Source: a virus. Taken from it: DNA of 42,417 nucleotides. The notes beneath the pieces were generated by a model. It saw nothing but the letters and a program-made list of their open reading frames with translations. It was not told the origin of the DNA and did not search any database. The stretch is taken from the UHGV virus genome UHGV-0385671. One strand, 5' to 3'. The translations under genes and the position numbers were made by a program. Numbering within the stretch: the first letter of the stretch is position 1; every line of letters begins with the position of its first letter. Below are positions 1-14,097 of this stretch, in pieces.

Positions 1-844
1 AAATATTACTGATAAATTAGTTGTTAAATATGATGGCCCCGCACTAGCAGATCATAAAATAGATTTGGATGTTTTAACTGAGTCATTGAATGGACTAAAC
101 AACTTGCTTAAAGAAGTTAATTTGGTTGTCAATGGCACTAGTGAGTGTATTAATGTTGAGGTTGAGCCTTTTAAAGAAGGCTCATTTGAGTATTTGATTG
201 ATGTTATTCAAAATCCACTTGACCATTTGAATATATTAAGCATTATTGGGCTTGGAGGTACAGCTGCACTCGCAGCAGGAAATACTCTCATTGACTTAAT
301 TCGTCAGATCAATGGTAGGCAAATAAAACGGTTGACTTTAACAGCGGAAGGAGACTGTAAAATAGTTATGGATGATGGTGAGGAAATTATAGCCCCGTCA
401 TATTTCCGGCCTTTACTTGCCTCACCAAGCATACGCAAATCCTTATCGAAGTTAATTCATAATCCTTTGCAAAAGGAAGGATACGAATCGCTTAAAATTT
501 CAACTCAACAGGGGGTTGAGCTGATTAAGGTGCACGAAGATAATATTGAACCGTTCAGATATAGGCGCGTTCCTGTAGTGCAGTCCTTGTCTGAAAGGGT
601 GATTGAAGAGGCTCTAATCACATTTTTGACTATTCATAAGGATAAAAACACAGGCTGGCGAGTCAACTATGGCGATGACACAATCAGCGTGTCTATAGAA
701 GATACTGAGTTCTTACAACGTGTTAGTACGGGAAGAGAACCTGGTGTTTTTAGTGATGCTTACTTCGTTGATTTGCTCGTCCGTGAGAACTTGAATTCGC
801 TGGACAAAACGTACATAGTTGTTAAAGTACACGGCATCTTATAG
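1..844 (+). CDS. C-terminal part of junction-spanning hypothetical protein (about 290 aa in total), AT-rich accessory cassette gene 1
   Basis: Frame open from position 2 with no upstream stop; ORF track gives 65..844 but the frame is continuous from the window start. No recognised motif. Confidence 0.55.
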   Translation, partial: NITDKLVVKYDGPALADHKIDLDVLTESLNGLNNLLKEVNLVVNGTSECINVEVEPFKEGSFEYLIDVIQNPLDHLNILSIIGLGGTAALAAGNTLIDLIRQINGRQIKRLTLTAEGDCKIVMDDGEEIIAPSYFRPLLASPSIRKSLSKLIHNPLQKEGYESLKISTQQGVELIKVHEDNIEPFRYRRVPVVQSLSERVIEEALITFLTIHKDKNTGWRVNYGDDTISVSIEDTEFLQRVSTGREPGVFSDAYFVDLLVRENLNSLDKTYIVVKVHGIL

Positions 845-867
845 TAGATTCACATGGGGAGGGGGCT

Positions 868-1116
868 ATGATTGCTTTTGCTTTTTGGCTGGCTTTTTTT
901 AGCCTGCTTCCCGTACTATATTGGGTTCTTAAGATGGGGTTTGACCGGTTACGCTTTGCGCTTATGCCTAAACATCATCTTGTTCTTGAATGTGTTGACT
1001 CAGAAGGAGTTGTCCGTCGCGATGTCGTTGATGTCTCTTCTGATGATGAATTTTACAAAATTGCAATGAATGCCATTCGTGCTGGAAGATCAGTCAAAGG
1101 AGGGACGTTTGAGTAG
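868..1116 (+). CDS. Small membrane protein (82 aa, one N-terminal TM helix), accessory cassette gene 2
   Basis: ATG 868 preceded by GGGGAGGGGG SD; N-terminus MIAFAFWLAFFSLLPVLYWVL is hydrophobic; 23 nt after gene 1 stop. Confidence 0.5.
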   Translation: MIAFAFWLAFFSLLPVLYWVLKMGFDRLRFALMPKHHLVLECVDSEGVVRRDVVDVSSDDEFYKIAMNAIRAGRSVKGGTFE

Positions 1117-1639
1117 CGCCTCTAAACCTGATAGCTACGAAAAAGTCCCTCTGATTTCTAATGTTGCTGCTGGTGGCATCACTGGTTTTTTAACATTACT
1201 GGTGTCCTCGTGGGACGGTCGTTTTCCGTATATTGGTTCTGATTTAAATACAATAAAGCCATTTCTTTTATTAATGCTTCCCAGTTGCGCTATGTTTCTG
1301 GCACATTGGATAAAGTCGATTGGGTTTAAATGGTCCTTAGGTAGCGTTAATCGACAGTTATTAAGCATTAATAAGAAGAAAGAAAAAGAACTTCGCCGTG
1401 ATATTGAAAAGTACAAAAATGTTATTTCTAATGAAAAGATAGAGGACTTTAAAAGTCAACTTGAACAAGTATTACAAGATCGTCATGATATTATTTCTAA
1501 TAATTATGCACAGAAACTAAGAGAAAGAAATTATACACAAGAAAAATATCATGAGCATAAACAAACCGCTGCAAATGATAATATTGAGCTGCAAGGCATA
1601 CTGGAGAATCAGAAGTTCAATCAAAAAGGCATTGACTAA
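1070..1639 (+). CDS. Membrane protein with two predicted TM segments and a C-terminal coiled-coil-like region, accessory cassette gene 3 (alternative TTG start at 1109 after an AAGGAGG SD)
   Basis: Overlaps gene 2 end; hydrophobic stretches VAAGGITGFLTLLVSSW and IKPFLLLMLPSCAMFLAHWI; Lys/Glu-rich heptad-like C-terminus. Confidence 0.5.
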   Translation: MPFVLEDQSKEGRLSSASKPDSYEKVPLISNVAAGGITGFLTLLVSSWDGRFPYIGSDLNTIKPFLLLMLPSCAMFLAHWIKSIGFKWSLGSVNRQLLSINKKKEKELRRDIEKYKNVISNEKIEDFKSQLEQVLQDRHDIISNNYAQKLRERNYTQEKYHEHKQTAANDNIELQGILENQKFNQKGID

Positions 1640-1643
1640 ATTT

Positions 1644-1940
1644 TTATAATATCCTCTCTAGGTTCTTGCTATCCAGCACCACTACGGTAAAGCCCAGTTT
1701 TCGCAGACGTTCATGTTCGCGCAACTGGTCAGGCCGTGGTGGCTTGCCGGGTGATTTACATTCAACGAAAAAGATACGACCACCTGGTAGCAGGACAATG
1801 CGATCCGGTACCGAGCGGTGACCGGGAGATACAAACTTAAAGGCCACTCCGCCAGCTTTTTTCACTTCAGCGACGAGGTGCTTTTCGATAAGGCTTTCAC
1901 GTTCATAGGCCATCTGAATCCCACTCTTCAAAAAGCACAT
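1644..1940 (-). CDS. VRR-NUC domain nuclease
   Basis: PD-(D/E)XK-like motif PDRIVLLPGGRIFFVECK and overall VRR-NUC pattern; 98 aa; sits in the replication module. Confidence 0.8.
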   Translation of the reverse strand: MCFLKSGIQMAYERESLIEKHLVAEVKKAGGVAFKFVSPGHRSVPDRIVLLPGGRIFFVECKSPGKPPRPDQLREHERLRKLGFTVVVLDSKNLERIL

Positions 1941-2202
1941 TCAATTCCAGTTTCTCTGCCAACGCGTTTTCTGCACGTGCGCCGGCAGAGTACTCCCACT
2001 CTTTGAGCATATAAATCGTATCGGCACAGCGAAGCATTGTGAGGCAGATGTCCATATACTGAGCCTGTGTCAAACCATTGGGTACAGTTGCGGGGTTAAG
2101 CACAACATATCCCTTGTCCGTTAGCTTCTTTGCTGCGGAATGAAAAGCCGGGCGGTTAAATTGCTCGTAACCGCTCATCGGCCCGGCAACGTAAACGATC
2201 AT
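1903..2202 (-). CDS. DUF4406 / nucleoside 2-deoxyribosyltransferase-like protein
   Basis: N-terminal VYVAGPMSG motif and NPA motif typical of this family as I recall it; 99 aa. Confidence 0.65.
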   Translation of the reverse strand: MIVYVAGPMSGYEQFNRPAFHSAAKKLTDKGYVVLNPATVPNGLTQAQYMDICLTMLRCADTIYMLKEWEYSAGARAENALAEKLELNVLFEEWDSDGL

Positions 2203-2414
2203 TCTTCGACCACCTTACGCTTTTCACGCATATTCTGCATCAGGCAAAAATCAGATCTGCGTTCACTCCATTCCTGATTCAATTCGTGATGTGATTCGCG
2301 GTTGGCTTTTGCCCAGACCTTCGCTGCCCGGTCATATTCGCCGGATTGTTCAAGTCGCAAAGCCTCCCTTGCAGCCCTGTAATAAAGTGGATTGTCCCGG
2401 TATTTAAATGACAT
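2199..2414 (-). CDS. Small hypothetical protein (71 aa), possibly ANR-like small regulator
   Basis: ORF with 4-nt overlap to downstream gene in operon; helical pattern PLYYRAAREALRLEQSGEYDRAAKVWAKA; family assignment tentative. Confidence 0.4.
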   Translation of the reverse strand: MSFKYRDNPLYYRAAREALRLEQSGEYDRAAKVWAKANRESHHELNQEWSERRSDFCLMQNMREKRKVVEE

Positions 2415-2419
2415 AGGAG

Positions 2420-4483
2420 TTAATCCTTACGGTAGTGGTACGCCTCAAAACCGCCAGCGTTCAGTGGGATATCGGGCGCCCATTCGGGGTTAGTGGAGAG
2501 AAGCGCGGAAAGCGCTTTATCGTTGAAATCTTCTGTGTCAGGTGCTTCGGTGATCACCTCGTCGTGTACCGTCAGCACAATGCTGTAACCGGCATCTTCG
2601 ATAAGCGGCATGTTTCCGGCCAGAACGTCGCGGGCGGCCGCCTGGGTGACGTTCTCCACCAGCTTTCCGCCGTAGGTTTTGAGTCGTTGCCATTTACGCG
2701 AATAAGAGTTAACACCCATGTAGGTGATATTCCCTTGTTCGATAACCGGAGACGGGTAGCATACAGCGCGTCCGGATGGTAGCTGTATGCGTAGCCACGC
2801 GCCATCGCGGCGGATTTTAAGATAACCGCAATACAATGTTTTTTGCGGTGTGGCGATTGCAGTGCGGACGGTGCGCTCCAGTTCGTACCAGAAATCACAG
2901 GTCGCGGGATGCGCCCGGCGCCAGAGACGTTTAAGTGAGTCGCAGGCGATAAATACCCGTTCAGAAAGGCCGTAGGTTGACTTACGTTTAACCGATTCGC
3001 CGTACCAGCTTTTCGCCTCGCGGATAACATCGCGGGGAATGTTTGGCAGTGCAGCGTTTGCCAGCTCGTCGAGATCGAGACCGTAAACCAGTGCAAAAGT
3101 GATGAAGGCCGACACACCACCACCATAACCCAGACCGAGTTCCATGACTTTACCGATCTGACGCATGCGTTTATCAACATCATCTGGTGCAATATCAAAA
3201 GCTTTTGCATACGCCAGTTTATATAAGTCCGGACCCGTTCCGGCGTCGTACTCTCTGAATGCATTCAGTTTCCATTCTTCTCCTGCCAGCCATGACAGCA
3301 TACGGCCTTCAATGTTCGACAAGTCACTTACCACCAGTTTTTTGCCTGTTGGCGCGATAATGCAGCCACGTAACGCTGAACTGGTTAGTTCCATGATATT
3401 GTCAAACAGCAGGTCTGCACATCCGGCTTTCAGTGCTTCGATGCCTTCGTCTATTTGTTCCTGTTTTAGTGAAGGGCGGGGAAGGTTCTGGGGCTGGAAT
3501 AGCCGTCCGGCCCAGCGCCCGGTACGCGACGCCCCGCAGAACTGTAGCGTACCGCGTAAGCGCCCGTCGTGGCTTACGCCTTTCATTAGTGCCTTGTATT
3601 TACTGGTGCTGGTAGTACTGGCTTGCAGGCGGATAGCCAGCAGTTCTTTCACGGCAGATGGTAAATCGGGGTCGGCTATACGACGTTCTAGGGTACTGCG
3701 TTGCATGTCTGGTAGCTCCACACCGTAGGATTCAACGATGTGCTTAATCAACGCGTCCCGTTGTGTGGCTGCCTGCACTTCGCCATCAGTCATTTCCTGT
3801 GTACGCTTTGCCAGGCGCTTTTGCTCCTGGTCTACCGCTTCGATCGCAGCGCGCGCGAGTTGCATGTCCATGCAGACGCCCCGGTCGTTGATCTGCTGAT
3901 CACGATGCCAGAGCGCCAGCTCTGTCCCCTGATAATTCCACTTCGGCAGACGTTTATAGACTTCGCGCATTGCCTCGATATCCAGTCCGGCGTAAGCAAC
4001 AAAGCGCCGCCATTCTTCCGGGTGGGTTTTACTGGTGGCCCGACGCAGTTTGCTGTTTTTCGGGCGTGGCTTACAGAACAGCTGGATCAGCGCTTTACCT
4101 TCTTTGTCCTTCGCTTTGTCTTGCGGGACGCCTAGTACTTCGCAGAGTTCCCCCAGAGACCCCGGGAGACCGTGCGCCAGCGCCTGCACCATCGTGTCGC
4201 GCCAACGTTCGACTGGCGGTGCCAGTCGCGGCATTGCATAACGCAGAACGGTGCGGTCGAAGTGAGAGTTATGGAAATAAAGCAGGGTTTCAGGGTCTGC
4301 GATTGCTTCGTATAAGCCGTGTGGAATACCACCACCGGCAGTGATATCCCACACGTTTACTGGCCCGTCGTTGATAGCCCATGCGAAAAGCATCACTTCA
4401 ACGCCTTCGGCATACGCATGGGTACCGTTGTTGATCGGAATGTCACAATAGGTTTCCAGGTCGCCCCATAGTATATTGGACAT
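2420..4483 (-). CDS. Family A DNA polymerase with N-terminal 3'-5' exonuclease domain
   Basis: 687 aa; DnaQ-like exo motif near N-terminus (GDLETY) and PolA-like palm region; GAGGA SD 8 nt upstream of ATG. Confidence 0.9.
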
Positions 4484-4544
4484 AAAATATCCTCATATGG
4501 TATATGGTTAAATGCTAGATATCATGAATTAAAGGAGACAACTA

Positions 4545-5234
4545 ATGACTGTGGGTAATAAGAGACAGCCTAATGGATTACCTGAATATTATTGTCACCG
4601 TGGTAACGACATAAAAGATGCGATAGTTCGGGATTTTACTATTCAGCCTGTTGCACACCTGAAACTTATTACTGGACAAACTAAAACCAGTTATTCCGGT
4701 TATCCGTTAACCGATCAGTACTATTGTTTTTCATTTAAAAAACGCTCTGATGAAAATTGTACAGGGGCTTTTTTCTGTGGTAGAGATGTTGCAAAGGATT
4801 TCATTCGGCGTATCGGTTGTACAGAGCTGCCGTTATTTAATCCTATGAAATCGGATACCAGTGCAGCAATAGAACGTTCCGGTTCTGGCTCAGGTAGTTC
4901 TGGTATTACTGTCAAGCCAAATGCTGACAAAAAGCTATTTATAGACGCAGTTCGTCTGTTAATGACGCTGTGGGATTCAACAAGTAAGGGACAAACCCCA
5001 CTGGCGTCGGTTCTTAATGAAGCAATTTCTGGTGGTATAGATAAACCTCCAGAAATTAGACATGTAGTGGCGGTTAATACAATGTTGGGTAACACAAAAA
5101 ATACTTTAACTGGTCTGCTGGATAAAGCAAGAGCGAAGTATCCTGATGTGTTATTCAGAGATTTTGATTTCACGCCTCTTAACGAGATTGTAAAACGTTC
5201 AAAATCATATAATAAGCATCCCCCTTGTTATTGA
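4545..5234 (+). CDS. Hypothetical Cys-rich protein with Gly/Ser linker, encoded antisense inside the leftward replication operon
   Basis: Strong SD AAGGAGA 7 nt upstream of ATG 4545; Cys/His cluster at N-terminus (CHRGN..C..C..C), SGSGSGSSG linker; lower GC by eye than neighbours. Confidence 0.6.
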   Translation: MTVGNKRQPNGLPEYYCHRGNDIKDAIVRDFTIQPVAHLKLITGQTKTSYSGYPLTDQYYCFSFKKRSDENCTGAFFCGRDVAKDFIRRIGCTELPLFNPMKSDTSAAIERSGSGSGSSGITVKPNADKKLFIDAVRLLMTLWDSTSKGQTPLASVLNEAISGGIDKPPEIRHVVAVNTMLGNTKNTLTGLLDKARAKYPDVLFRDFDFTPLNEIVKRSKSYNKHPPCY

Positions 5235-5869
5235 GTATCAGACACTGTATTGGTAGGAAGGCCTATCATTTCATTTAATGTCTCTCGATGTACCGCTGGT
5301 GCTAAAGGGACTGGCGGTGCGTCTGTTGGAAGCAGTTCTTTAGCTTCGGGCCATACATCCAGTAATCGTTTTACTGTCCGAACTTTATTTAGAGCCGCGC
5401 TGACGTTCTGTATGATTTCGGTTTCATCACTTTTAATTTGTGTGTAGAGAGCATCAAAGCTATAAAACTCCGTTACCAGAGGATCTTCGCCAAGTAGAGT
5501 AAATTCTGCAGGTGCTATTTTATTAATATGCTCGGGGGCTCCTGATTCATAACCTCTGTAGTTGCCATTGAAATAAATGTTTGCTCTGGCTCCAGCCAGA
5601 TTGAGATATATGCAGCAATCTTTTCGAATTAAAGAACTATTGGTTTTTAATGAATCAGGGATTTTTGTGACCATGGATTCAATCTTTTTTATATTTTTTA
5701 ATATTTCAGCTTCTTTCTCTACGCCCCCGATAGCTGCAAGCCGAACACGTTCGGCCCATTCAACACGAGCAGCTCGTAGTGCTGATTTACGTTTGGGGAT
5801 ACCCGCTTTCTCAAGTGCGTTATTGATGATTTGAGTTTTAAGGTGATTAGTTAATACGGGCTGTGACAT
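5228..5869 (-). CDS. Hypothetical early protein (213 aa); start chosen at ATG 5869 rather than the GTG at 5899
   Basis: GAGGGAAAG SD upstream of ATG 5869; the longer GTG start lies inside a perfect hairpin. Confidence 0.55.
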   Translation of the reverse strand: MSQPVLTNHLKTQIINNALEKAGIPKRKSALRAARVEWAERVRLAAIGGVEKEAEILKNIKKIESMVTKIPDSLKTNSSLIRKDCCIYLNLAGARANIYFNGNYRGYESGAPEHINKIAPAEFTLLGEDPLVTEFYSFDALYTQIKSDETEIIQNVSAALNKVRTVKRLLDVWPEAKELLPTDAPPVPLAPAVHRETLNEMIGLPTNTVSDTQ

Positions 5870-5889
5870 TATACTTTCCCTCATGAGAT

Positions 5890-5910
5890 CCCCCAGCACG
5901 TAGCTGGGGG
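5890..5910. other. Perfect 8-bp stem-loop (CCCCCAGC-ACGTA-GCTGGGGG) in the 5' leader of gene 5228..5869
   Basis: Inverted repeat read directly; followed on the plus strand by a U-rich tract, so it could terminate antisense transcripts or act as a processing or translational element. Confidence 0.4.
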
Positions 5911-5920
5911 ATGAATATTT

Positions 5921-6469
5921 TTAAATTAGTGCTTCAGCATCAGCACCTTCGCTGATATCGTCAAAATCGTCAGCGCTTGCCACTCCGCCGCCAGCGAATG
6001 CATCGCCGTCTCGCAGGAACTGGACTCCGCCGAGTGAGGCATTAATGCGTTTACCGAAATTATTGTCCTGTGCCCAGATATCGATAACGGCGTTTACATA
6101 GCACCCTGCATAGGGACGTCCATCAGCCTGAATTAGTGGCGAACGATCGCGATCAAGAACAGCTGGGCGCGCTTTGTTAGCAGCATTCAGGAAGAAATTA
6201 CCGGGAAAGCCTTCATACTCTGCTTTTTCATCACCATCATGTAGGCACAGATTGAGTTTTTTCTCCAGCTGGCTATAAATGGGCTCCCACTTTTCTCCCC
6301 ATTTTTCCTTCGCTACCTGCTTCATAGCTTTACGGATTTCTTCCAGTTGTGGGTGTTTGGGTGACATTAAAAATACTGCGGAGAAACGCGGATCGCCTTC
6401 GCCGTTTACAGTTTTAGCTTCAAACAGAGACGGGAAGGCCAGACGAACATTGTTCAGCTTCAGTTTCAT
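5921..6469 (-). CDS. DUF2815-family phage protein (commonly paired with DUF2800; putative ssDNA-binding)
   Basis: N-terminus MKLKLNNVRLAFPSLFEA and gene order next to DUF2800 and PolA. Confidence 0.7.
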   Translation of the reverse strand: MKLKLNNVRLAFPSLFEAKTVNGEGDPRFSAVFLMSPKHPQLEEIRKAMKQVAKEKWGEKWEPIYSQLEKKLNLCLHDGDEKAEYEGFPGNFFLNAANKARPAVLDRDRSPLIQADGRPYAGCYVNAVIDIWAQDNNFGKRINASLGGVQFLRDGDAFAGGGVASADDFDDISEGADAEALI

Positions 6470-6484
6470 GGGTATTTCCTTAAA

Positions 6485-7786
6485 TCAGATGAGGTCTGCG
6501 GTTAGCGTATCGTCGGATACGTCGTCGAAATCATTTACAGGGTTGATATTGAGTGCGGGGCGTGGGTCTGACTCGGGAACGACGGTGGGTTTACCATCAG
6601 CTCGTGTTATCAGTGCCTCGACTTTTGACCAACGGCGCGGACTGGCCTTTTTGATAAGTTTTTCGGCTTTTGTGGGACTAATAAGTTTAAAGTCGAATAC
6701 TTCTTCAGTTTTGTACCTGAACTGGTCTTTCAGCAGCGCGCGGGCGGCTTCTTCATCGCTCCAGGCGCGATTACCCTGTTTACCAGTAACCAACTTAAAG
6801 CCCGGTACCGGATGCCCGGCGTTCAGCTCACTGTTCACCCGGTCGCGCACAGCCTTTAGCCAGGATTCAATAAAGTCGGCCTGGCTGTAGATCTCCGCCA
6901 GTTCCTCGATTGTCAGAAGCGGTACGCGCGAGCTGGCATCAGTGATGATTTCACTAACCGGTTTGGTCAGGTCTTCGAAATCGCTGGCAGCAGTTTGCAT
7001 GTGCTGCATTTTCTGAGCAATGCAGACTGCTTTGGCTTTGCAGAATCGGCACTGTTTTTCCCCGGGGGTGAAGTTTTCCAGCGGCAGGGTTTCGACGCCT
7101 TCGCAATCGGCGATGTTGAACATCACGATTACACTGGCTGCCGCTTCCTGCGCCCGTTCGCCGAACGCCTGGAGCTCTTCCACCGTCAGAGCCCACTCTG
7201 AAACGTGGTTAAGCCGCGGCTGGTGGATGAACAGGCGCACCGTCTCGAAGTCGTACAGCATGCTGAACTGTTCGAGTGCGCCAAGGGCATACAGCTGCAG
7301 CTGCTCGTTCTGCTCGGCGTCGACCCGCACACCCTTACCGTATTTCAGATCGTGGATCTGCAGCTCGTTGCCCGCGATGATTACGCCGTCGGCGGTACCG
7401 AATGACTCGTCTACGCCCACGATATGGGAGAAGTCGACACGCTGCTCGACCAGCAGCTCATTGCCCTGCGCCAGCGCCCAAACAGTGTCGACGTAACGAC
7501 CAACGGCTTCGACCATTTCCTCATCTACCTGCGGGCCGGAAGTATCATCCGGGTGCTCAGCAAGAGGATAGGATCCGAGGAACATCGCGACGGTGCAACC
7601 TGCATAGTGCTCCGGGTGGCTCTGGCGGTTGCGCAGCACCTTTTCGGCAAGTGCATGCGCTGCAGTGCCCTCGATTGCGAAAGTTGTTTCTTTATCCGGT
7701 TGTGTGGCCTCCAGCGCCAGACTTCCTGGGCAGCGCATCCATCGATGCGCTGATGATGGAGAAAGTTGTGCGTGAACGTCTGGCAT
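6485..7786 (-). CDS. DUF2800 PD-(D/E)XK nuclease, Cas4-like with C-terminal Cys cluster
   Basis: N-terminal [15 protein letters not shown] motif and C-terminal [10 protein letters not shown] four-Cys cluster. Confidence 0.8.
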
Positions 7787-7788
7787 GA

Positions 7789-8691
7789 TTAACCCTCCAG
7801 TGCTTTTTCAGCCAGGGTGATTACTTCAGCGAGATTTTCATCCGTTACTTCACCAAGTTTCCTGGCTCCCTGTTTTTCCAGAATTGCAATAGCTTCTGCC
7901 CGGTAACCCCCTTTTGCTAACTGGAGGATCAACCCTTCAGCTTGTTTGCGTAGTGCCGCGAAATCAATTGTATGGTCATCTTTGGCGTCATTATTCTGAC
8001 TGGAATTTGCTGCGTCTCTGCGTGCAAATTCTTCCTGCAGCTGAAGGTACTCAACACGGTTGATCTCGATATGGCCTTTTTTAAGCATCTCGTTCAACTT
8101 GCGTAAGGTGTGGAGTTCACTGGCTGCTGTGCCGGATACATTTTTGACGTAAAACGGCCCCGTGCGTTCTCCATCTTTGTTACTGGCCTTTTTCGGCTTA
8201 ACTTCATCACGCCCATCTGCAGGTGCATCAAGTAGCTGCTCGGCAAAAGCACGTCGCTCGCCGATGGTTGGCAGGTCGTCCCAGAACTTAAGAATGTTAC
8301 GGGACAGGTCCAGGAGAGCAGGTTTAAGCAGCGCTCTGGCTCGTTTGACGCCCTGTAATGCGCTGTCGAGAGCATCAATCTGAACTACTCGTTTATCGCC
8401 TTCAGCATCACGGTAGGCAACAGCACGTTGCAGCATGTCTTCTGTGATAGGGGTGGCTACCGGGTAGAAACCAGCCAGTGCGATAACGTCGCTGAACTCC
8501 AGATCATCCAGTGTCATTGCCGCTGACATATTTTCAGTTTCAGTTGCTGTATCCCGACATTCCTGCACTCGTGAAATCGTGTCAGGATGCATAACAATAC
8601 CTGATGCCATTGTGCGGATAAGACGTTCAAGCAGCGCATTATGTTGTGCCAGAAGTTGATTATTAAGTTCTAGACTGGTTTCTAAACTCAT
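7789..8691 (-). CDS. Hypothetical early protein (300 aa)
   Basis: Long ORF in operon with 1-4 nt overlaps to neighbours; no recognised motif. Confidence 0.55.
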
Positions 8692-8870
8692 ACTGTGGTC
8701 CTCGCTACAAGGAGAATGAAAGTGATGATCAGACCGAGCGCAGTGGCAACGGCCAGACCGGTCATCAAATCGAAGTTTTTACGGCGATAACGGAGAACAT
8801 CGCGCCCCGTCAGTCTATGGATGTGTTCAGGTTTCATCGGTTGTATTCCTTTTTTCATATCGGGGAGCAC
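8688..8870 (-). CDS. Small early membrane protein (60 aa, C-terminal TM helix)
   Basis: C-terminal hydrophobic stretch LAVATALGLIITFILLV; overlaps downstream gene by 4 nt. Confidence 0.45.
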   Translation of the reverse strand: MLPDMKKGIQPMKPEHIHRLTGRDVLRYRRKNFDLMTGLAVATALGLIITFILLVARTTV

Positions 8871-8896
8871 GCTGTTGCGAGTGCGCTTTCAGACAT

Positions 8897-8922
8897 AAAA
8901 AAGCCCGTCACTTGAGGCGGGC
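8897..8922 (-). terminator. Intrinsic terminator on the minus strand between the first early gene and the rest of the leftward operon (tL1-like position)
   Basis: GC stem GCCCG/CGGGC followed on the minus strand by UUUUUU. Confidence 0.45.
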
Positions 8923-8964
8923 AAAGACTACACACAGCAATTACATGGAGGATTCAGAGGATTG

Positions 8965-9159
8965 TTATGGGGGAAGGACGACGGTATCCATTCGGTTAAA
9001 ACAAGTATTGGTCGCAGAACCTGTATGTTTGTTAACTAGAGTCAGGCTAACGTTATGCTGGTCGCGGTCAGTTTTTTGGGTAACCTCCATTATCCGTTTT
9101 CCACTGAATTCAATTTTGTCGCCGATAGCCAGGTCATTAACCAGTTTATATTTAGGCAT
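8965..9159 (-). CDS. Small first gene of the leftward early operon (64 aa), function unknown
   Basis: ATG 9159 preceded by GAGGAA SD; first gene downstream of the PL-like region and immediately followed by a terminator. Confidence 0.5.
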   Translation of the reverse strand: MPKYKLVNDLAIGDKIEFSGKRIMEVTQKTDRDQHNVSLTLVNKHTGSATNTCFNRMDTVVLPP

Positions 9160-9445
9160 CTTGTGATTCCTCATTCAGTTCACTTTAGTGGTTCGGCGGC
9201 TTCGACTTGTATTAATTAGACAGTGCTTCGCCGCACCCCAAAGGGAACTTACTGATCCGTATTGCCGACATCCTGTCCCGCCACGGTCCCGACGCATGGT
9301 TTAGAGTCGCGCCGTTCGACTTGTGGCTAAAGATACAATTTGAGTTGTATTGTGTAAACCACAAATATGGTATTTTGTAGGGTGTGAATACTACTTTATT
9401 GATATTTAAGTGAATTTAATTTGTAAGACTTTACAAATGGGGTAA

Positions 9446-9465
9446 GGGAGGCTGTTACGCCTCCC
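9446..9465 (-). terminator. Possible terminator hairpin downstream of the repressor gene
   Basis: 7-bp stem GGGAGGC/GCCTCCC with 6-nt loop 20 bp after the CI stop; trailing U-tract is weak. Confidence 0.3.
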
Positions 9466-9484
9466 GATATTTACGGTGGGAATA

Positions 9485-10108
9485 CTAACGTTTACGGCGG
9501 TAAATACGGTGTTCGATCATTACACCTATGATCTGTAAGTTCATATCTGCACTACGAAAAATAGGGTAATCAGGATTTAGGGGGATTAATTCAAAGTCGT
9601 CGATGCCGATTCCTAATGGGCGGTATTTTTTAAATGTAGCTTCGTGACCGTCGTTTTTGGCGACAACAAACTCCCCTGGTGCAGGACATAGATCAGGATC
9701 GATGATAACGATGTCTCCTTCTTTAAACTCTGGTTGCATGCTGTCGCCATCAATACGTAATGCGAAGCATGTTTCTGGAATGTCAGAGTCTGCCAAAATA
9801 TATTCAAATTCCCCTGTCAGATCTGTTATGTCTCTTGCTTCTGTAAGCTCTCCTGCCTGAACGTAACTTAATATAGGTATGCGTCTGGTACTTATCTCTG
9901 TGAGAGGCATAATATTTTTACCGTTCAGTAGCCAGTCTGGGCTACATTTCAAGGCCTTAGCCAAATCCAGAAGATTGCGTGGCTTTCTGGTTCGTCCACT
10001 TTCGATGGATTCTATGGATTGTTGGCTAACCCCTGCAGAATTCGCTACTTCCACTTGAGTCATTCCTAATTCCAAACGACGTGCTTTAAAACGGGCTGCG
10101 AGAGACAT
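9485..10108 (-). CDS. CI-like repressor: XRE HTH plus S24 (LexA-like) self-cleaving peptidase domain
   Basis: HTH QVEVANSAGVSQQSIESIESG; Ala-Gly cleavage site in VQAGEL; GDSM and KK catalytic dyad; AGGA SD upstream of ATG 10108 (ORF track start 10198 is probably too long). Confidence 0.9.
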   Translation of the reverse strand: MSLAARFKARRLELGMTQVEVANSAGVSQQSIESIESGRTRKPRNLLDLAKALKCSPDWLLNGKNIMPLTEISTRRIPILSYVQAGELTEARDITDLTGEFEYILADSDIPETCFALRIDGDSMQPEFKEGDIVIIDPDLCPAPGEFVVAKNDGHEATFKKYRPLGIGIDDFELIPLNPDYPIFRSADMNLQIIGVMIEHRIYRRKR

Positions 10109-10131
10109 GGGATTAGTCCTTCTGGGTTGTA

Positions 10132-10153
10132 TTAATGTGTATACCCACATTAA
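10132..10153. promoter_or_regulatory. Palindromic operator candidate (TTAATGTG-N6-CACATTAA) in the CI/Cro divergent promoter region
   Basis: Perfect 8-bp inverted arms with 6-bp spacer read directly. Confidence 0.5.
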
Positions 10154-10167
10154 AAACAATTTTTGTT

Positions 10168-10202
10168 GTATTTGACAAACCCCATTCGTTGTTGTCAAAT
10201 AC
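10168..10202. promoter_or_regulatory. Second inverted repeat (GTATTTGACAA ... TTGTCAAATAC) carrying TTGACA -35-like hexamers facing both directions
   Basis: 11-bp arms are exact reverse complements; each arm contains TTGACA. Confidence 0.5.
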
Positions 10203-10228
10203 CACTAAAATTGTATGAGGTAAAAGCA

Positions 10229-10441
10229 ATGACCTTAGCGACCCGAGTAAAAGAACGACGTAAAGAACTCAAAATGACGCAAGTTACGTTGGCTGAGCTC
10301 ACAGGAGTGAGCCAGCAGGCAATAAACAGAATTGAAAGTGGTGTTATTGCTCGACCACGTTATCTTCTTGAAATGTCTATAGCATTGGATTGCGACCCTA
10401 ATTGGCTGTTGTATGGCTCACAAAACGATAAAAAGGCTTAA
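10229..10441 (+). CDS. Cro-like XRE-family HTH regulator
   Basis: ATG 10229 after GAGG SD; HTH MTQVTLAELTGVSQQAINRIESG; divergent from the repressor. Confidence 0.8.
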   Translation: MTLATRVKERRKELKMTQVTLAELTGVSQQAINRIESGVIARPRYLLEMSIALDCDPNWLLYGSQNDKKA

Positions 10442-10444
10442 CCC

Positions 10445-12637
10445 ATGTCCGATAGCAAACCATGGGGAGCTACGCCTGATGAGTGGTTTCATTTCGACCT
10501 GGTATTGGGGAGAACTGATCATCTTCTCCCAGTTGTATGTAACCCCGGTGCGACCATATCCCCTGACAGTAAACTGAAAGCGCTGGGTAAGACGCCAAGT
10601 CGCTATAACCGGGACCGCCAGGTCACCGGTATTGCTCAATGGACCGGACATGTTGTTACTGAGCATGATTTTGCCCGCTGGTCGAATGAACCGGATTATG
10701 GCATCTGCGTGCGTACAGGCCATGGCTGGCTGGCGCTGGACTGCGATAGCGAAGATGAAGACATTCAGGCAGATATTCGCAAAACGCTTGTGCAACTTCT
10801 GGGGGAGTTGCCGCCGCGACGCTGGCGAGCAAACAGTAATAAGTGTCTGTATCTGCTGGCCGTTGATGGTGATTTCCGTAAGCGTATCCATCGCCTGGCG
10901 GGGGATATGGGCATTATCGAGTTGCTGGCGAACGGGCAGCAGTTCGTTGCCTGCGGTACGCACAGCAGCGGTGCGCGTATTGAATGGGACGGCGGTTTGC
11001 CGGATGAACCTCCGGCTATTACTGGTGAGCAGCTTGAAACGCTGTGGCAGCGCCTGGCTGAACAACTCCCTGTGTCGGTAACCACCGAAGCGGGCAACAC
11101 GAAGATGCGCGACCGATCAGCATTCACGCCCGGCGCGACGGATGATACAGCTGAATATCTTGATGCCAATGGCTGGACGCTGCTGGATGGCGCAAACGGT
11201 GAACGATATATCCGCTGTCCGTTTGAAGACGGCCACAGTAGCGGGGGCGACCCAACAAGTACAGTTTATTTTCCTGCGGGAACTGCGGGCTTTGAGCAGG
11301 GGCATTTTAAATGCCTACATGCCAGTTGCGCGCATCGTGATGACGGAGATTTCCTGAATGCCATCGGGATCCGCAACGACGATTTCGAAGATCTGACCAG
11401 CATCGAAGTGGCGGAACCTTTACCGCTGCCTGCTTTCGAGCGTGATAAATGGGGGCGTATCGAGGCAACCATCAGCAACGCAGCCAAAGCAGTAGTACGC
11501 CCTGATTTTGTGGACATCGATATTCGCTTTGACCAGTTCCGCGACGAAATCATGTTTGCCCCGGCAGGATCCGGACAATGGCGGGCATTCACCGATGCGG
11601 ATTATGCGCGCCTGCGCATCACGATGGAAAAGCGGGGATTTAAACCTGTTGGCCGTGAACTTATTCGCGATGTGGTGTTACTTGCAGCCGATGAACAACC
11701 ATTCGATTCAGCAATCACCTGGCTGAACGGACTGGAGTGGGATGGCGTGCCGCGCATCGAATGTTTCTACCATACGCACTTCGGTACCGCCGACACGCCT
11801 TATACCCGTGCGGTGTCTATGTACATGTGGACCGCGTTGGCGGGGAGAGTACTGGAGCCAGGCATCAAAGCGGATATGGTGCCGATCCTCGTTGGTCCGC
11901 AGGGCTGCGGTAAGTCTTCCGGAGTGGAGGCACTGAGCCCTGATCCTGCGTTTTTTACTGAAATCTCTTTTGCCGAAAAAGACGATGATCTCGCTCGAAA
12001 AATGCGTGGTCGGCTGGTGGCAGAGATTGGTGAACTGCGCGGACTTAATACCAAAGAGCTGGAGTCAATCAAAGCGTTTGTGACGCGTACTCACGAAAAC
12101 TGGATCCCGAAATACCGGGAGTTCGCCACCCAGTTTCCTCGTCGCCTGGTGTTCGTTGGTACCACCAATGAGGACGAATTCCTTGCGGACAAGACTGGTA
12201 ACCGTCGCTGGCTCCCCGTGGAAGTGTCGAAAGTCGACGTGAAAGCGATAAAAAGAGATCTCCTTTTACTTTGGGCTGAGGCTCGTGAGGTGTTTCAGCG
12301 TCTGGGGGGGATCCAGTTCCGTGAGGCTGAACAACTGGCAGCGAGTGTCCATGAACAGTACACCATCAAGGATGCTTGGCTTGAAACGGTAGAGAAATGG
12401 CTCGACACGCCAGACCTGATGACTAATGAACTTCCGCGAAATTGCGAATTTTTACGCGCAAGTGATGTTTTGCGTGATGCGATTGGGCTAAATCCTGACC
12501 GCATCGGAAAACGCGAAGAAATGCGAATTAGTAATGTTTTGCAAAATTGCGGGTATAAGCGTGCTCAAAGGCGAATTGGGGGGAAAATGACTCGAATTTT
12601 TGAGGCGGTGTCCCAACCTGTACCAGCCTCAAAATAG
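10445..12637 (+). CDS. Replication initiator: primase-polymerase N-terminal domain fused to a D5/VirE-like P-loop NTPase (helicase)
   Basis: 730 aa; Walker A VGPQGCGKSS; N-terminal region matches the bifunctional primase/polymerase pattern as I recall it; first gene of the rightward early operon after cro. Confidence 0.8.
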   Translation: MSDSKPWGATPDEWFHFDLVLGRTDHLLPVVCNPGATISPDSKLKALGKTPSRYNRDRQVTGIAQWTGHVVTEHDFARWSNEPDYGICVRTGHGWLALDCDSEDEDIQADIRKTLVQLLGELPPRRWRANSNKCLYLLAVDGDFRKRIHRLAGDMGIIELLANGQQFVACGTHSSGARIEWDGGLPDEPPAITGEQLETLWQRLAEQLPVSVTTEAGNTKMRDRSAFTPGATDDTAEYLDANGWTLLDGANGERYIRCPFEDGHSSGGDPTSTVYFPAGTAGFEQGHFKCLHASCAHRDDGDFLNAIGIRNDDFEDLTSIEVAEPLPLPAFERDKWGRIEATISNAAKAVVRPDFVDIDIRFDQFRDEIMFAPAGSGQWRAFTDADYARLRITMEKRGFKPVGRELIRDVVLLAADEQPFDSAITWLNGLEWDGVPRIECFYHTHFGTADTPYTRAVSMYMWTALAGRVLEPGIKADMVPILVGPQGCGKSSGVEALSPDPAFFTEISFAEKDDDLARKMRGRLVAEIGELRGLNTKELESIKAFVTRTHENWIPKYREFATQFPRRLVFVGTTNEDEFLADKTGNRRWLPVEVSKVDVKAIKRDLLLLWAEAREVFQRLGGIQFREAEQLAASVHEQYTIKDAWLETVEKWLDTPDLMTNELPRNCEFLRASDVLRDAIGLNPDRIGKREEMRISNVLQNCGYKRAQRRIGGKMTRIFEAVSQPVPASK

Positions 12638-12788
12638 AGGTTGGTACATTTTAACTAATTGAATTTAAAGGCAAGTACCAACTGTACCATCTGTACCAAC
12701 CTAATTACTAAGAACCCCATATATATAAGTCGCTTGGGGAAAAGGTTTGAAAAGAGCTGGTACAGGTGGGTACAGGTTGGTACAGGCC
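12619..12788. repeat. Iteron array and AT-rich spacer: putative origin of replication
   Basis: TGTACCA heptamer three times in direct orientation (12675..12700), three times inverted as GGTACAGG at exact 10-bp spacing (12759..12788), flanking a 58-bp AT-rich spacer; extra copies at 12619 and 12643. Confidence 0.6.
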
Positions 12789-14094: not shown

Positions 14095-14097
14095 TTC

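What the first reader, a model, noticed from the sequence alone, without database searches (positions are those of the whole stretch)
1644..8691. PolA / DUF2800 / DUF2815 / VRR-NUC / DUF4406 replication module in a lambda-type temperate phage, with its SNF2 helicase separated
This gene set is, to my knowledge, more typical of certain virulent phages, yet here it sits in the early-left operon of a phage with CI/Cro, Q-like regulator and integrase. The SNF2 helicase (40909..42306) is separated from the rest by the junction cassette, suggesting the cassette inserted into a once-contiguous module. The DUF4406 protein raises the possibility of nucleotide metabolism or DNA modification.
Basis: partly seen in the sequence, partly recalled or inferred. 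Interest (0 to 1): 0.45.

Follow-up and report, generated by a model that had tools for sequence, protein, structure and literature searches.

The report
Known phage replication module with cargo slots
This stretch is the DNA-replication and recombination gene set of a common E. coli prophage; the gene set is already known from many temperate and virulent phages, so the finding is ordinary, and swappable accessory genes sit between its core genes.

Summary
The window is a circularised temperate E. coli myophage. It is 100% identical to a prophage beside yfhL, and the module occurs in 159 of 5,426 complete E. coli genomes.

With the VapE primase-helicase across cI/cro, the genes form a self-contained, T7-like replisome plus recombination set. 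This is the published duf2800-gp2.5-polA (Enc34-type) module.

It is not specific to virulent phages. The same order occurs in Staphylococcus phiSa2wa, Streptococcus 315.6 and Burkholderia vB_E332, all with integrases, and in 51 bacterial-genome loci.

The cassette idea is supported. VRR-NUC and SNF2 lie less than 200 bp apart in 10 of 35 loci. Close relatives carry different cargo at sharp breakpoints, and only 17 E. coli genomes carry this cassette. DUF4406, Nmad5 and the orphan ORF are likewise gene-sized, independently assorting cargo.

The DNA-modification idea is weak. DUF4406 has a deoxyribosyltransferase/DNPH1-like fold with the catalytic motif. Nmad5 shows no enzyme fold, no other modification genes are present, and both families occur in phages not known to modify their DNA.

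The parts
7789..8691 (-). Conserved 300-aa protein of unknown function; first large gene of the early-left operon; core of the module in Enterobacterales
   Evidence: PHROG 6784 (1.5e-179, unknown function). No Pfam, NCBIfam or PADLOC hit. 588 homologous clusters, all named hypothetical. Syntenic in L002, L006-L010, L014 and L040.
6485..7786 (-). DUF2800 Cas4/RecB-like PD-(D/E)XK exonuclease
   Evidence: Pfam DUF2800 2.7e-110 and PDDEXK_1 3.2e-11; PHROG 69 exonuclease 4e-136. Sequence shows the HDLK and QLQLY motifs and a C19...C246-x2-C249-x5-C255 cysteine pattern.
5921..6469 (-). DUF2815 / gp2.5-like ssDNA-binding and annealing protein with an acidic C-terminal tail
   Evidence: Pfam Enc34_ssDNA-bd 7.6e-44; PHROG 112 7.7e-57; PDB 4jg2 and 5odj at E 2e-16 and 5e-16. 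The tail reads ...ADDFDDISEGADAEALI.
5888..5912 (+). Terminator-like hairpin that would act on the + strand only, in the DUF2815/Nmad5 spacer
   Evidence: 10-bp stem with 7 G-C pairs, followed by GAATATTTTT on the + strand; the - strand side has no T-run. Its function is inferred.
5228..5869 (-). Nmad5-family protein; accessory cargo of slot 1; function unknown
4545..5234 (+). Opposite-strand orphan ORF (229 aa); accessory cargo of slot 1
   Evidence: No hit in Pfam, PHROGs, NCBIfam or PADLOC. GC 39%. PGAP annotates it as a hypothetical protein. Together with Nmad5 it is present in 26 E. coli genomes.
2420..4483 (-). Family A DNA polymerase with a 3'-5' proofreading exonuclease domain and no 5'-3' exonuclease
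   Evidence: Pfam DNA_pol_A 5e-13; PHROG 17 8.9e-126. Motifs read: DLE, NSHFD and YAGLD (Exo I-III); DLSNIEGR (A); [15 protein letters not shown] (B); VHDE (C).
2199..2414 (-). ANR/PerC-like small regulator; core of the module in Enterobacterales
   Evidence: NCBIfam ANR_neg_reg 9.8e-20; Pfam PerC 1.5e-3 (sub-threshold); PHROG 2227. Conserved in L006-L014 and L040.
1903..2202 (-). DUF4406, a minimal nucleoside 2-deoxyribosyltransferase/DNPH1-like protein; accessory cargo of slot 2; overlaps both neighbouring genes
   Evidence: Pfam 9.7e-34; PHROG 355 1.1e-42. AlphaFold2 pLDDT 88.6. Foldseek hits to deoxyribosyltransferases, DNPH1/Rcl, BcmB and MilB with TM about 0.7 and probability 1.0. S72-x-G74-x3-E78-x3-A82 is invariant. 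It is a gene-sized indel relative to L006-L008.
1644..1913 (-). VRR-NUC nuclease (junction- or flap-resolving PD-(D/E)XK enzyme)
   Evidence: PHROG 93 endonuclease 7.4e-33; Pfam VRR_NUC 1.5e-3, below the cut-off; PGAP name VRR-NUC. Motif PD46...E59-C-K61.
42374..42417 (+). Start of cassette gene 1; the gene continues at window position 10 because the last 9 bases repeat the first 9
   Evidence: Alignment to the prophage copy L001 18323-19201.
1..844 (+). Rest of cassette gene 1 (292 aa in all), a candidate anti-phage defence protein
   Evidence: PADLOC PDC-S42 4.7e-40; PHROG 3243. GC 39%.
868..1116 (+). Cassette gene 2 (82 aa); hydrophobic N-terminus
   Evidence: PHROG 15510, unknown function. 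Sequence.
1109..1639 (+). Cassette gene 3 (176 aa); hydrophobic segments plus a charged helical tail
   Evidence: PHROG 15878, unknown function. PGAP coordinates. GC 35%.
40909..42306 (-). SNF2-family helicase/translocase; last enzyme of the module
   Evidence: Pfam SNF2-rel_dom 5.1e-12 and Helicase_C; PHROG 62 1e-157. GMGKT, DEST and TGTP motifs.
40712..40912 (-). Excisionase-like (AlpA-type) HTH protein
   Evidence: PHROG 4745, and PHROG 66 and 1553 (excisionase).
39312..40715 (+). Tyrosine integrase next to the attachment site at yfhL
   Evidence: Pfam Phage_integrase 4e-7; PHROG 1 1.6e-26. The integrated copy lies beside yfhL.
9485..10108 (-). cI-type repressor (HTH + S24 self-cleaving peptidase)
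   Evidence: Pfam Peptidase_S24 2.6e-21 and HTH_3 1.4e-12. PGAP coordinates.
10229..10441 (+). Cro-type HTH regulator
   Evidence: Pfam HTH_3 3.6e-14. PGAP coordinates.
10445..12637 (+). Primase-helicase (N-terminal primase, C-terminal VapE/D5-type helicase); the replication initiator of the set
   Evidence: Pfam VapE-like 2.3e-60; PHROG 1156 DNA primase (residues 5-315) 4e-40; PHROG 256 helicase 3e-146; PDB 7pds 8e-34.
12915..13349 (+). Q-type late antiterminator
   Evidence: Pfam Phage_antitermQ 8.7e-51.

Best explanation
The interval is the early-left operon of a widespread temperate E. coli myophage. With the primase-helicase in the early-right operon, it encodes a self-contained replication and recombination set of the known duf2800-gp2.5-polA (Enc34 / phi12 / 315.6) type.

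Inferred sequence of events: after the repressor is cleaved, the right operon makes the VapE primase-helicase, which opens and primes the phage origin. The left operon makes:
- a proofreading family A polymerase;
- a gp2.5-like ssDNA-binding and annealing protein;
- a Cas4-like exonuclease, which with the annealing protein forms a two-part recombinase occupying the place of lambda exo/bet;
- a VRR-NUC junction or flap nuclease;
- an SNF2 translocase, for fork or branch remodelling.

Gene for gene this matches the T7 set (gp4, gp5, gp2.5, gp6, gp3).

The core genes are orf300, DUF2800, DUF2815, PolA, ANR, VRR-NUC and SNF2. Three junctions between them act as cargo slots that different relatives fill differently. 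In this phage:
- slot 1 holds Nmad5 plus an opposite-strand orphan ORF;
- slot 2 holds DUF4406;
- slot 3 holds a three-gene, low-GC, opposite-strand cassette whose first gene matches a candidate defence family.

Cargo on the opposite strand is probably expressed in the lysogen, in the manner of a moron. Cargo on the operon strand (Nmad5, DUF4406) is probably an early lytic accessory, such as nucleotide-pool clean-up, host takeover or counter-defence.

Shown: gene identities, motifs, synteny, slot variability and distribution. Inferred: all activities and all expression timing.
For: - Family assignments and catalytic motifs.
- Temperate status: 100% identity to a prophage between yfhL and yfhH. 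The module is in 159 of 5,426 complete E. coli genomes, always chromosomal.
- Conserved order DUF2800-DUF2815-[slot 1]-PolA-[slot 2]-VRR-NUC-[slot 3]-SNF2, with VapE beyond cI/cro, in 51 bacterial-genome loci and in the phages vB_E332, phiSa2wa and 315.6.
- Published descriptions of the module: PMC8093625 (duf2800-gp2.5-polA, no separate ssb gene, also in phages of Gram-negative bacteria) and PMC5686142 (Enc34 module: primase, transcription factor, polymerase, VRR-NUC, helicase).
- Functional equivalence to lambda Red + O/P: SEN34 shares the virion genes at about 83% nucleotide identity but carries exo/recT/gam and O/P at the same positions.
- Cargo slots: slot lengths are 43-2720, 10-6639 and 25-2460 bp. 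Homology breakpoints fall at gene boundaries: 42279/1648, 1913/2203-2213 and 4483/5921.
- Cargo GC is 35-43%, except DUF4406 at 49%, which is within the core range of 49-56%.
- The accessory genes assort independently in E. coli: 73, 59, 26 and 17 of the 159 module-bearing genomes.
- Relatives carry other cargo: a CAP12/Pycsar TIR protein, a C5 methyltransferase, SprT-like and Bro-N proteins.
- PDC-S42 match for cassette gene 1.
Against: - No experiment bears on any activity.
- The promoter scan is at chance level, so lysogenic expression of the opposite-strand cargo is not shown.
- The origin of replication was not located.
- orf300 and the ANR-like protein are conserved parts of the set with no assigned role.
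- Pfam scores VRR-NUC below its curated cut-off.
- The bacterial-genome loci were taken as prophages from context (cI-like genes, large chromosomal contigs). An integrase was confirmed by homology only in L014.
Confidence: 0.85

Rival explanations
1. DUF4406, perhaps with Nmad5, changes the phage's DNA or nucleotide pool so that virion DNA carries a non-canonical base.
For: - DUF4406 has the deoxyribosyltransferase/DNPH1/MilB fold and an invariant S-x-G-x3-E motif with the spacing of the DNPH1 catalytic loop.
- It sits in the early operon, overlapping both neighbouring genes.
- In M6-like phages an Nmad5 gene lies in the thymidine hypermodification cluster (PMC9476957).
Against: - No hydroxymethylase, kinase, aGPT-Pplase, glycosyltransferase, DpdA, Mom or methyltransferase appears anywhere in the PGAP annotation of the prophage or in my scans.
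- The Nmad5 model has no enzyme-like neighbour in the PDB. Its conserved residues are mostly hydrophobic or Lys/Arg/Glu.
- Nmad5 and DUF4406 are not linked. The Xenorhabdus loci have Nmad5 only and Sodalis has DUF4406. Their E. coli counts differ, 59 against 73.
- Both families occur in phages with no known modification: HK542, mEp235, Stx phages and SPN3UB for Nmad5; N15 and a Rac-like prophage for DUF4406.
- Deleting nmad5 in a Dhillonvirus had no reported effect beyond Tmn sensitivity (PMC11846954).
Confidence: 0.06
2. DUF4406 and Nmad5 are early counter-defence or host-takeover proteins. DUF4406 would be an N-glycosidase that destroys a nucleotide-derived immune signal or a toxic nucleotide analogue. 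Nmad5 would be a non-enzymatic binder of a host or defence protein.
For: - Both are optional, gene-sized cargo on the operon strand.
- In the close relative 606R2, slot 2 holds a CAP12/Pycsar-type TIR protein. Slot 3 there holds a protein with a deoxyribosyltransferase-like NVMFELG motif (read by eye). So nucleotide-processing folds recur in these slots.
- In HK542 the Nmad5 homologue is the first gene after N, where lambdoid phages keep host-interference genes.
- Mutants that escape the Tmn defence map to nmad5, and nmad5 is toxic when cloned (PMC11846954).
- Nmad5 ends in an invariant peptide within a low-confidence tail, as protein-docking tails do.
Against: - It rests on context only; no substrate or target is known.
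- DUF4406 could equally serve ordinary nucleotide salvage or pool sanitation, like DNPH1.
- The same folds are used by defence effectors, so the direction (defence or counter-defence) is open.
Confidence: 0.3
3. The module was recently captured from a virulent phage and is foreign to this temperate lineage.
For: - Most isolated enterobacterial phages with DUF2800 are virulent siphoviruses: Chi-like, Jersey-like, Kagunavirus and Dhillonvirus.
- The closest named relative by virion genes, SEN34, has a lambda-type module instead.
Against: - The core module's GC (49-56%) matches the virion genes (52-55%).
- The whole int-xis-SNF2...cI-cro-VapE layout is shared with prophages of Pectobacterium, Serratia, Xenorhabdus, Limnobaculum, Acinetobacter and Burkholderiales, and with Burkholderia phage vB_E332.
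- The best DUF2800 matches outside E. coli are in temperate phages. Virulent enterobacterial phages match at only 29-32% identity.
Confidence: 0.04
4. The int / primase-helicase / polymerase region is a separate satellite or integrative element nested in the prophage, not the phage's own replication module.
For: VapE-type primases and integrases are typical of phage satellites.
Against: - There is one integrase, one cI/cro switch and one attachment site.
- The module lies between int and cI in the same operon as xis.
- Relatives conserve it together with the virion genes.
- No other replication genes exist in the genome.
Confidence: 0.02

Closest known systems
duf2800-gp2.5-polA / Enc34-type replication module (Enterobacter phage Enc34, Chi-like and 'Nazgul-like' phages; PMC5686142, PMC8093625)
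   Same: Same families: DUF2800 nuclease, DUF2815 SSB, family A polymerase, small transcription factor, VRR-NUC, SNF2 helicase, primase-helicase. No separate ssb gene.
   Different: Those phages are virulent siphoviruses with all genes in one block. Here the set is split across a cI/cro switch, ends at xis/int, and carries three cargo slots.
Temperate Gram-positive phages with the same module: Staphylococcus phiSa2wa/phi12-type (Triavirus) and Streptococcus prophage 315.6
   Same: They have an integrase and the order DUF2800-DUF2815-PolA...VapE...VRR-NUC-SNF2.
   Different: All genes are on one strand downstream of cro, and VapE lies between PolA and VRR-NUC. VRR-NUC and SNF2 are about 50 bp apart. 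Protein identity is 32-46%.
Burkholderia phage vB_E332 (PQ789818)
   Same: Identical layout: int - xis-like HTH - SNF2 ... VRR-NUC - PolA ... DUF2815 - DUF2800 ... repressor / cro - primase-helicase. Protein identity is 44-60%.
   Different: Its slots hold two DNA methyltransferases, an HNH endonuclease and an exonuclease-like protein. It has no Nmad5, no DUF4406 and no PDC-S42 cassette, and its virion module is different.
Escherichia phages vB_EcoM-606R2 / 611R5 / 689R2 (ON470579 and others) and the yfhL prophages of E. coli FDAARGOS_144 and 97-3250
   Same: Same phage type: core module 89-98% nucleotide identity, virion genes 97%.
   Different: The slot contents differ. 606R2 has a membrane protein in slot 1, a CAP12/Pycsar TIR protein in slot 2 and two same-strand ORFs in slot 3. 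FDAARGOS_144 and 97-3250 keep Nmad5 and DUF4406 but have a single different ORF in slot 3.
Salmonella phage SEN34 (Brunovirus)
   Same: Virion module about 83% nucleotide identity over 60% of the query. Lambdoid regulation with integrase, Q and lysis genes.
   Different: It has lambda-type exo/recT/gam/kil and O/P replication genes where this phage has the PolA-type set.
Bacteriophage T7 replisome (gp4, gp5, gp2.5, gp6, gp3); comparison from my own knowledge
   Same: Same division of labour: primase-helicase, family A polymerase, gp2.5-like SSB with an acidic tail, exonuclease, junction-resolving endonuclease.
   Different: The helicase is VapE/D5-type, not DnaB-type. The nucleases belong to other families. 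There is an additional SNF2 protein. No thioredoxin-binding loop was examined.

Membership tests
duf2800-gp2.5-polA (Enc34-type) phage replication/recombination module | DUF2800 PD-(D/E)XK nuclease | tested here: met
   Pfam 2.7e-110; nuclease and 4-Cys motifs.
duf2800-gp2.5-polA (Enc34-type) phage replication/recombination module | DUF2815/gp2.5-like SSB immediately downstream of the nuclease | tested here: met
   Pfam 7.6e-44; PDB 5odj 5e-16. There is a 15-bp gap between the two genes.
duf2800-gp2.5-polA (Enc34-type) phage replication/recombination module | Family A polymerase downstream with intact exonuclease and polymerase motifs | tested here: met
   It is separated from the SSB by the 1.4-kb slot 1.
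duf2800-gp2.5-polA (Enc34-type) phage replication/recombination module | VapE/D5-type primase-helicase in the same phage | tested here: met
duf2800-gp2.5-polA (Enc34-type) phage replication/recombination module | VRR-NUC followed by SNF2 helicase | tested here: met
   Both are present in the right order, but 1,745 bp apart instead of less than 200 bp.
duf2800-gp2.5-polA (Enc34-type) phage replication/recombination module | No separate classical ssb gene in the phage | tested here: met
   None in the PGAP annotation of the identical prophage. Not every small ORF was scanned.
Lambdoid-type temperate phage | Divergent cI (S24) / cro switch, Q antiterminator, integrase with excisionase, integrated copies in host chromosomes | tested here: met
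Lambdoid-type temperate phage | N-type early antiterminator and nut sites | not tested
   No candidate was recognised. The 8838-9484 spacer was not analysed.
Phage DNA hypermodification system | A base-modifying enzyme at nucleotide level (hydroxymethylase / ThyA-like, PurZ, 7-deazaguanine synthesis genes) | tested here: not met
   None in the Pfam, NCBIfam or PHROG scans of the module, or in the PGAP annotation of the whole prophage.
Phage DNA hypermodification system | DNA-level transferases (glycosyltransferase, aGPT-Pplase, DpdA, Mom, methyltransferase) | tested here: not met
   None found (same calls). Relatives do carry methyltransferases in the slots.
Phage DNA hypermodification system | Non-canonical bases in virion DNA | not testable with these tools
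   Needs LC-MS or restriction profiling.
Nucleoside 2-deoxyribosyltransferase / DNPH1 (Rcl) / MilB N-glycosidase superfamily (for DUF4406) | Flavodoxin-like deoxyribosyltransferase fold | tested here: met
   AlphaFold2 pLDDT 88.6. Foldseek hits 2a0k, 6evs, 9da6, 4fyi and 4jen with TM 0.64-0.74 and probability 1.0. The protein is shorter (99 aa against 120-158).
Nucleoside 2-deoxyribosyltransferase / DNPH1 (Rcl) / MilB N-glycosidase superfamily (for DUF4406) | Catalytic Glu nucleophile in an S-x-G-x3-E loop, plus an N-terminal Tyr | tested here: inconclusive
   S72, G74, E78 and A82 are invariant and Y4 nearly so. The spacing equals that of the DNPH1 loop as I recall it. No residue-level structural superposition was available.
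Nucleoside 2-deoxyribosyltransferase / DNPH1 (Rcl) / MilB N-glycosidase superfamily (for DUF4406) | N-glycosidic bond cleavage or transfer activity | not testable with these tools
   Needs an enzyme assay.
Nmad5 (PF18757) | Match to the family profile | tested here: met
   1.7e-54 over the full profile length.
Nmad5 (PF18757) | A role in nucleotide or DNA modification, as the name implies | tested here: inconclusive
   No enzyme-like fold neighbour. No fusions among the best 150 of 2,409 clusters. It occurs in lambdoid phages that lack modification genes.
PADLOC candidate defence system PDC-S42 (cassette gene 1) | Match to the PDC-S42 profile | tested here: met
   4.7e-40 over residues 17-288.
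PADLOC candidate defence system PDC-S42 (cassette gene 1) | Protection against phage infection | not testable with these tools
   No paper in the library mentions PDC-S42.

The most novel reading that the evidence does not exclude
The junctions of this replication module would be dedicated slots for early-expressed proteins that process nucleotides. This phage has DUF4406, a minimal DNPH1-like N-glycosidase. Close relatives have a CAP12/Pycsar-type TIR protein or another deoxyribosyltransferase-like protein. These proteins would neutralise nucleotide-based bacterial immunity, either its signals or toxic nucleotide analogues. Nmad5 would be a non-enzymatic partner or decoy that defence systems such as Tmn have learned to sense.
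Probability: 0.12. Interest if true: 0.55.

Novelty: already known. Interest (0 to 1): 0.15.

Why it matters
It matters little for discovery. The module is published, NCBI's pipeline annotates it with the same family names in 159 complete E. coli genomes, and its presence in temperate phages has been on record since the Staphylococcus phi12 and Streptococcus 315.6 genomes.

The useful outcome is a clean map separating core from cargo.
- The three slots are natural places to look for prophage-borne defence or counter-defence genes.
- They point to cheap experiments on uncharacterised proteins: DUF4406, Nmad5, the 229-aa orphan and the PDC-S42 cassette.
- The pair SEN34 / this phage is a tidy example of a lambda-type Red + O/P set being exchanged for a self-contained polymerase set behind the same virion genes.

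Tried and rejected
- Sequence searches of DUF4406 and Nmad5 against the PDB, singly and (for DUF4406) as a profile, gave nothing meaningful.
- A profile search of 1.8 billion representatives for Nmad5 fusions found only stand-alone proteins among the best 150.
- The homologue search for orf300 returned 588 clusters, all hypothetical and without a Pfam domain.
- Promoter-like sites were at chance level (14 found against 14.2 expected), so own promoters for the opposite-strand ORFs could not be argued.
- Rfam and tRNA scans of the window were empty.
- The paper that named the Nmad domains (PMC3763556) is not held, and no paper mentions PDC-S42.
- I considered a beta-clamp-binding reading of the Nmad5 C-terminal peptide (LNxMIGLP). 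I dropped it because the match to the QLxLxL consensus is poor.
- I considered a nested satellite and rejected it: there is one integrase, one switch and no second replication system.

Full report
**What the window is**

The region 1644-8691 is found in 159 of 5,426 complete E. coli genomes, always on the chromosome and nearly always once. In 53 of them at least 80% of the region is covered.

The phage has:
- a cI repressor with an S24 peptidase domain, and a divergent cro;
- a Q antiterminator (Pfam 8.7e-51);
- a tyrosine integrase and an excisionase-like protein.

Its virion genes are 97% identical to the vB_EcoM-606R2 group. They are about 83% identical over 60% of the query to the virion genes of Salmonella phage SEN34, genus Brunovirus.

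**Check of the observation**

| Gene | Coordinates | Evidence |
|---|---|---|
| DUF2800 / PD-(D/E)XK | 6485-7786 | Pfam 2.7e-110 |
| DUF2815 / Enc34 SSB | 5921-6469 | Pfam 7.6e-44; PDB 5odj 5e-16 |
| Family A polymerase | 2420-4483 | Pfam 5e-13; PHROG 17 9e-126 |
| DUF4406 | 1903-2202 | Pfam 9.7e-34 |
| VRR-NUC | 1644-1913 | Pfam only 1.5e-3, below cut-off; PHROG 93 7e-33; PGAP uses the same name |
| SNF2 | 40909-42306 | PHROG 62 1e-157 |

The sequences carry the expected motifs:
- Exo I-III and polymerase motifs A, B and C in the polymerase.
- HDLK, QLQLY and a C...CxxCxxxxxC cysteine pattern in DUF2800.
- PD...ECK in VRR-NUC.
- GMGKT, DEST and TGTP in SNF2.
- An acidic ...ADDFDD... tail on the SSB.

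- Nmad5, 5228-5869, Pfam 1.7e-54.
- An ANR/PerC-like 71-aa regulator, 2199-2414, NCBIfam 9.8e-20.
- A conserved 300-aa protein of unknown function, 7789-8691.
- A + strand 229-aa ORF, 4545-5234, with no hit in any library.

The primase-helicase across the switch belongs to the same functional set. It spans 10445-12637, with an N-terminal primase (PHROG 1156, 4e-40) and a C-terminal VapE helicase (Pfam 2.3e-60; PDB 7pds 8e-34).

**What it is**

The gene set is the module described as duf2800-gp2.5-polA. It typically lacks a separate ssb gene and is found in phages of both Gram-positive and Gram-negative bacteria (PMC8093625). It also matches the Enc34 'replication module' of primase, transcription factor, polymerase, VRR-NUC and helicase (PMC5686142).

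Gene for gene it matches the division of labour of the T7 replisome: primase-helicase, family A polymerase, gp2.5-like SSB, exonuclease and junction endonuclease. That comparison is from my own knowledge. An SNF2 translocase is added.

A natural control supports the functional reading. SEN34 shares the virion genes but has exo/recT/gam/kil in the early-left operon and O/P in the early-right operon. These are exactly the positions where this phage has DUF2800/DUF2815/PolA/VRR-NUC/SNF2 and VapE.

**Is it unusual in a temperate phage? No.**

DUF2800 homologues occur in 1,765 phage records. They include virulent enterobacterial siphoviruses and also classic temperate phages.
- Staphylococcus phiSa2wa and Streptococcus 315.6 carry an integrase and the order DUF2800-DUF2815-PolA-...-VapE-...-VRR-NUC-SNF2.
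- Burkholderia phage vB_E332 has the very same layout as the window: int, xis-like HTH, SNF2..., VRR-NUC, PolA..., DUF2815, DUF2800..., repressor/cro, primase-helicase.
- A scan of one genome per bacterial species with the polymerase found 51 loci. They lie in Trabulsiella, Pectobacterium, Pluralibacter, Xenorhabdus, Serratia, Limnobaculum, Sodalis, Acinetobacter, many Burkholderiales, alpha-proteobacteria and Firmicutes, and they keep the same order.
- The core genes have the same GC content as the virion genes, 49-56% against 52-55%. Composition therefore gives no sign of recent capture.

**The cassette and the other cargo**

On the circle, the VRR-NUC stop (1644) and the SNF2 start (42306) are 1,745 bp apart. 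The interval holds three + strand ORFs with 35-43% GC:
- 42374..844, 292 aa, which runs across the window ends;
- 868-1116;
- 1109-1639.

The first ORF matches the PADLOC candidate defence family PDC-S42 (4.7e-40). The other two have hydrophobic segments, judged by eye.

Across 35 loci that have both genes, the VRR-NUC/SNF2 spacing ranges from 25 to 2,460 bp. It is under 200 bp in 10 of them: Staphylococcus, Streptococcus, three other Firmicutes, Mycoavidus, Parasutterella, Sutterella, Dongia and one unclassified.

E. coli prophages that are 95-98% identical on both sides (FDAARGOS_144 and 97-3250) carry a single, different + strand ORF of 236 or 195 aa. The breakpoints are the same, 42279 and 1648. 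Only 17 E. coli genomes carry this cassette, always at 99.3% identity or more.

Two more slots exist.
- Slot 1, between DUF2815 and PolA, is 43-2,720 bp across the loci. Here it holds Nmad5 and the orphan ORF (GC 41% and 39%). In 606R2 it holds a membrane protein instead, and in many relatives it is nearly empty.
- Slot 2, between PolA and VRR-NUC, holds the conserved ANR-like gene. Here DUF4406 is added as an exact gene-sized insert that overlaps both neighbours. Trabulsiella, Pectobacterium and Pluralibacter relatives lack it, and 606R2 has a CAP12/Pycsar-type TIR protein there (Pfam 2.9e-31).

Other relatives fill the slots with a C5 DNA methyltransferase, or with SprT-like, Bro-N or Arc-like proteins.

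Within E. coli the accessory genes assort independently among the 159 genomes that carry the module:

| Accessory element | E. coli genomes |
|---|---|
| DUF4406 | 73 |
| Nmad5 (two alleles) | 59 |
| Nmad5 + orphan ORF unit | 26 |
| Three-gene cassette | 17 |

**The modification idea**

DUF4406 folds with high confidence (pLDDT 88.6). Its nearest solved structures are nucleoside 2-deoxyribosyltransferases, DNPH1/Rcl and the CMP N-glycosidases BcmB and MilB, with TM 0.64-0.74.

Its invariant S72-x-G74-x3-E78-x3-A82 has the spacing of the DNPH1 catalytic loop as I recall it, and Y4 and D51 are nearly invariant. An active N-glycosidase or transferase acting on a nucleoside or nucleotide is therefore likely. 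This is an inference.

That is nucleotide metabolism, not evidence of modified DNA.
- No hydroxymethylase, kinase, glycosyltransferase, aGPT-Pplase, DpdA, Mom or methyltransferase is present in the phage.
- DUF4406 homologues occur in 696 phage records, including N15, a Rac-like prophage and many actinophages.
- The conserved positions of Nmad5 are largely hydrophobic or charged. They include an invariant WPEAKELLP...LNxMIGLP stretch in a low-confidence tail.
- The Nmad5 family is large, with 2,409 clusters, and the best 150 are all stand-alone proteins.
- Nmad5 homologues sit in lambdoid phages that have neither PolA nor modification genes. In HK542 the homologue is the first gene after N, and in SPN3UB it lies in the nin region.
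- Nmad5 and DUF4406 are not linked across loci.
- The only experimental data are from a Dhillonvirus: mutants that escape the Tmn defence map to nmad5, the gene is toxic when cloned, and its deletion does not abolish Tmn sensitivity (PMC11846954). In M6-like phages it merely lies in the hypermodification cluster (PMC9476957).

**Verdict**

The feature is a known module in a common prophage, so the interest is low. What remains open is the function of the accessory genes in the three slots. The most interesting reading still allowed is that the same-strand cargo (DUF4406, Nmad5, and the TIR and deoxyribosyltransferase-like proteins of relatives) counters nucleotide-based immunity. I give that about 12%.

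Noticed in passing
window 42374-42417 + 1-1639: The three-gene + strand cassette has low GC. Its first protein (292 aa, running across the window ends) matches the PADLOC candidate defence family PDC-S42 (4.7e-40). The two downstream proteins look membrane-anchored by eye. It is present in only 17 of 5,426 E. coli genomes.
   Followed up: partly
window 1-9 and 42409-42417: The window ends repeat 9 bases (AAATATTAC). This is a circular-assembly overlap, so the 'junction' is an artefact of linearisation.
   Followed up: yes
window 4545-5234 (+) and 5888-5912 (+): The orphan 229-aa ORF is convergent with Nmad5 and has no hit in four profile libraries. A strong + strand terminator-like hairpin lies 650 nt downstream. 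A transcript from this ORF would therefore run antisense across the whole Nmad5 gene before ending.
   Followed up: partly
window 5228-5869: Nmad5 proteins share an invariant C-terminal WPEAKELLP...LNxMIGLP stretch in a low-confidence tail, which looks like a docking peptide. The predicted fold has no enzyme-like neighbour.
   Followed up: partly
L002 (ON470579) 38874-39635 and 40365-40856; L041 11359-12291: Close relatives carry other nucleotide-processing folds in the same slots, on the operon strand. One is a CAP12/Pycsar-type TIR protein (Pfam 2.9e-31). The others are proteins with a deoxyribosyltransferase-like '...NVMFELGMRLA...' motif, which was read by eye and has no Pfam hit.
   Followed up: partly
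L010 12807-13337; L019 12085-12663: Slot proteins of a Xenorhabdus and an Acinetobacter relative contain a motif reminiscent of the beta sliding clamp ('ATNGH' / 'STDGHRG'). This was seen by eye only and not scanned successfully.
   Followed up: no
L062 (Salmonella phage SEN34, NC_028699) 24500-32100: SEN34 shares the virion module with this phage but has lambda-type exo/recT/gam/kil and O/P genes. This is a clean swap of replication modules.
   Followed up: yes
L001 14224-16839 and L061 7982-9210 (E. coli S1-IND-01-A): In this strain the otherwise identical prophage is interrupted in two places. An IS66-family element (ISCro1) lies between xis and the 3' end of SNF2, and an IS2 lies in the tail spike gene. 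That copy is probably defective.
   Followed up: partly
window 37035-39014 (-): A low-GC (36-37%) block lies between the tail-fibre genes and the attachment site. It holds a serine-acetyltransferase-like protein (181 aa) and two unknown ORFs (215 and 143 aa), probably lysogenic-conversion or moron genes.
   Followed up: no
window 39312-40715 (+): The integrase is long (467 aa) and is transcribed opposite to the excisionase-like gene, with 4 bp of overlap at the 3' ends. A 10-of-12 promoter-like match lies at its annotated start.
   Followed up: no
window 7789-8691 (-): The 300-aa first gene of the early-left operon is conserved in 588 protein clusters across E. coli, Salmonella, Citrobacter and Enterobacter prophages. 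It has no family assignment at all.
   Followed up: partly
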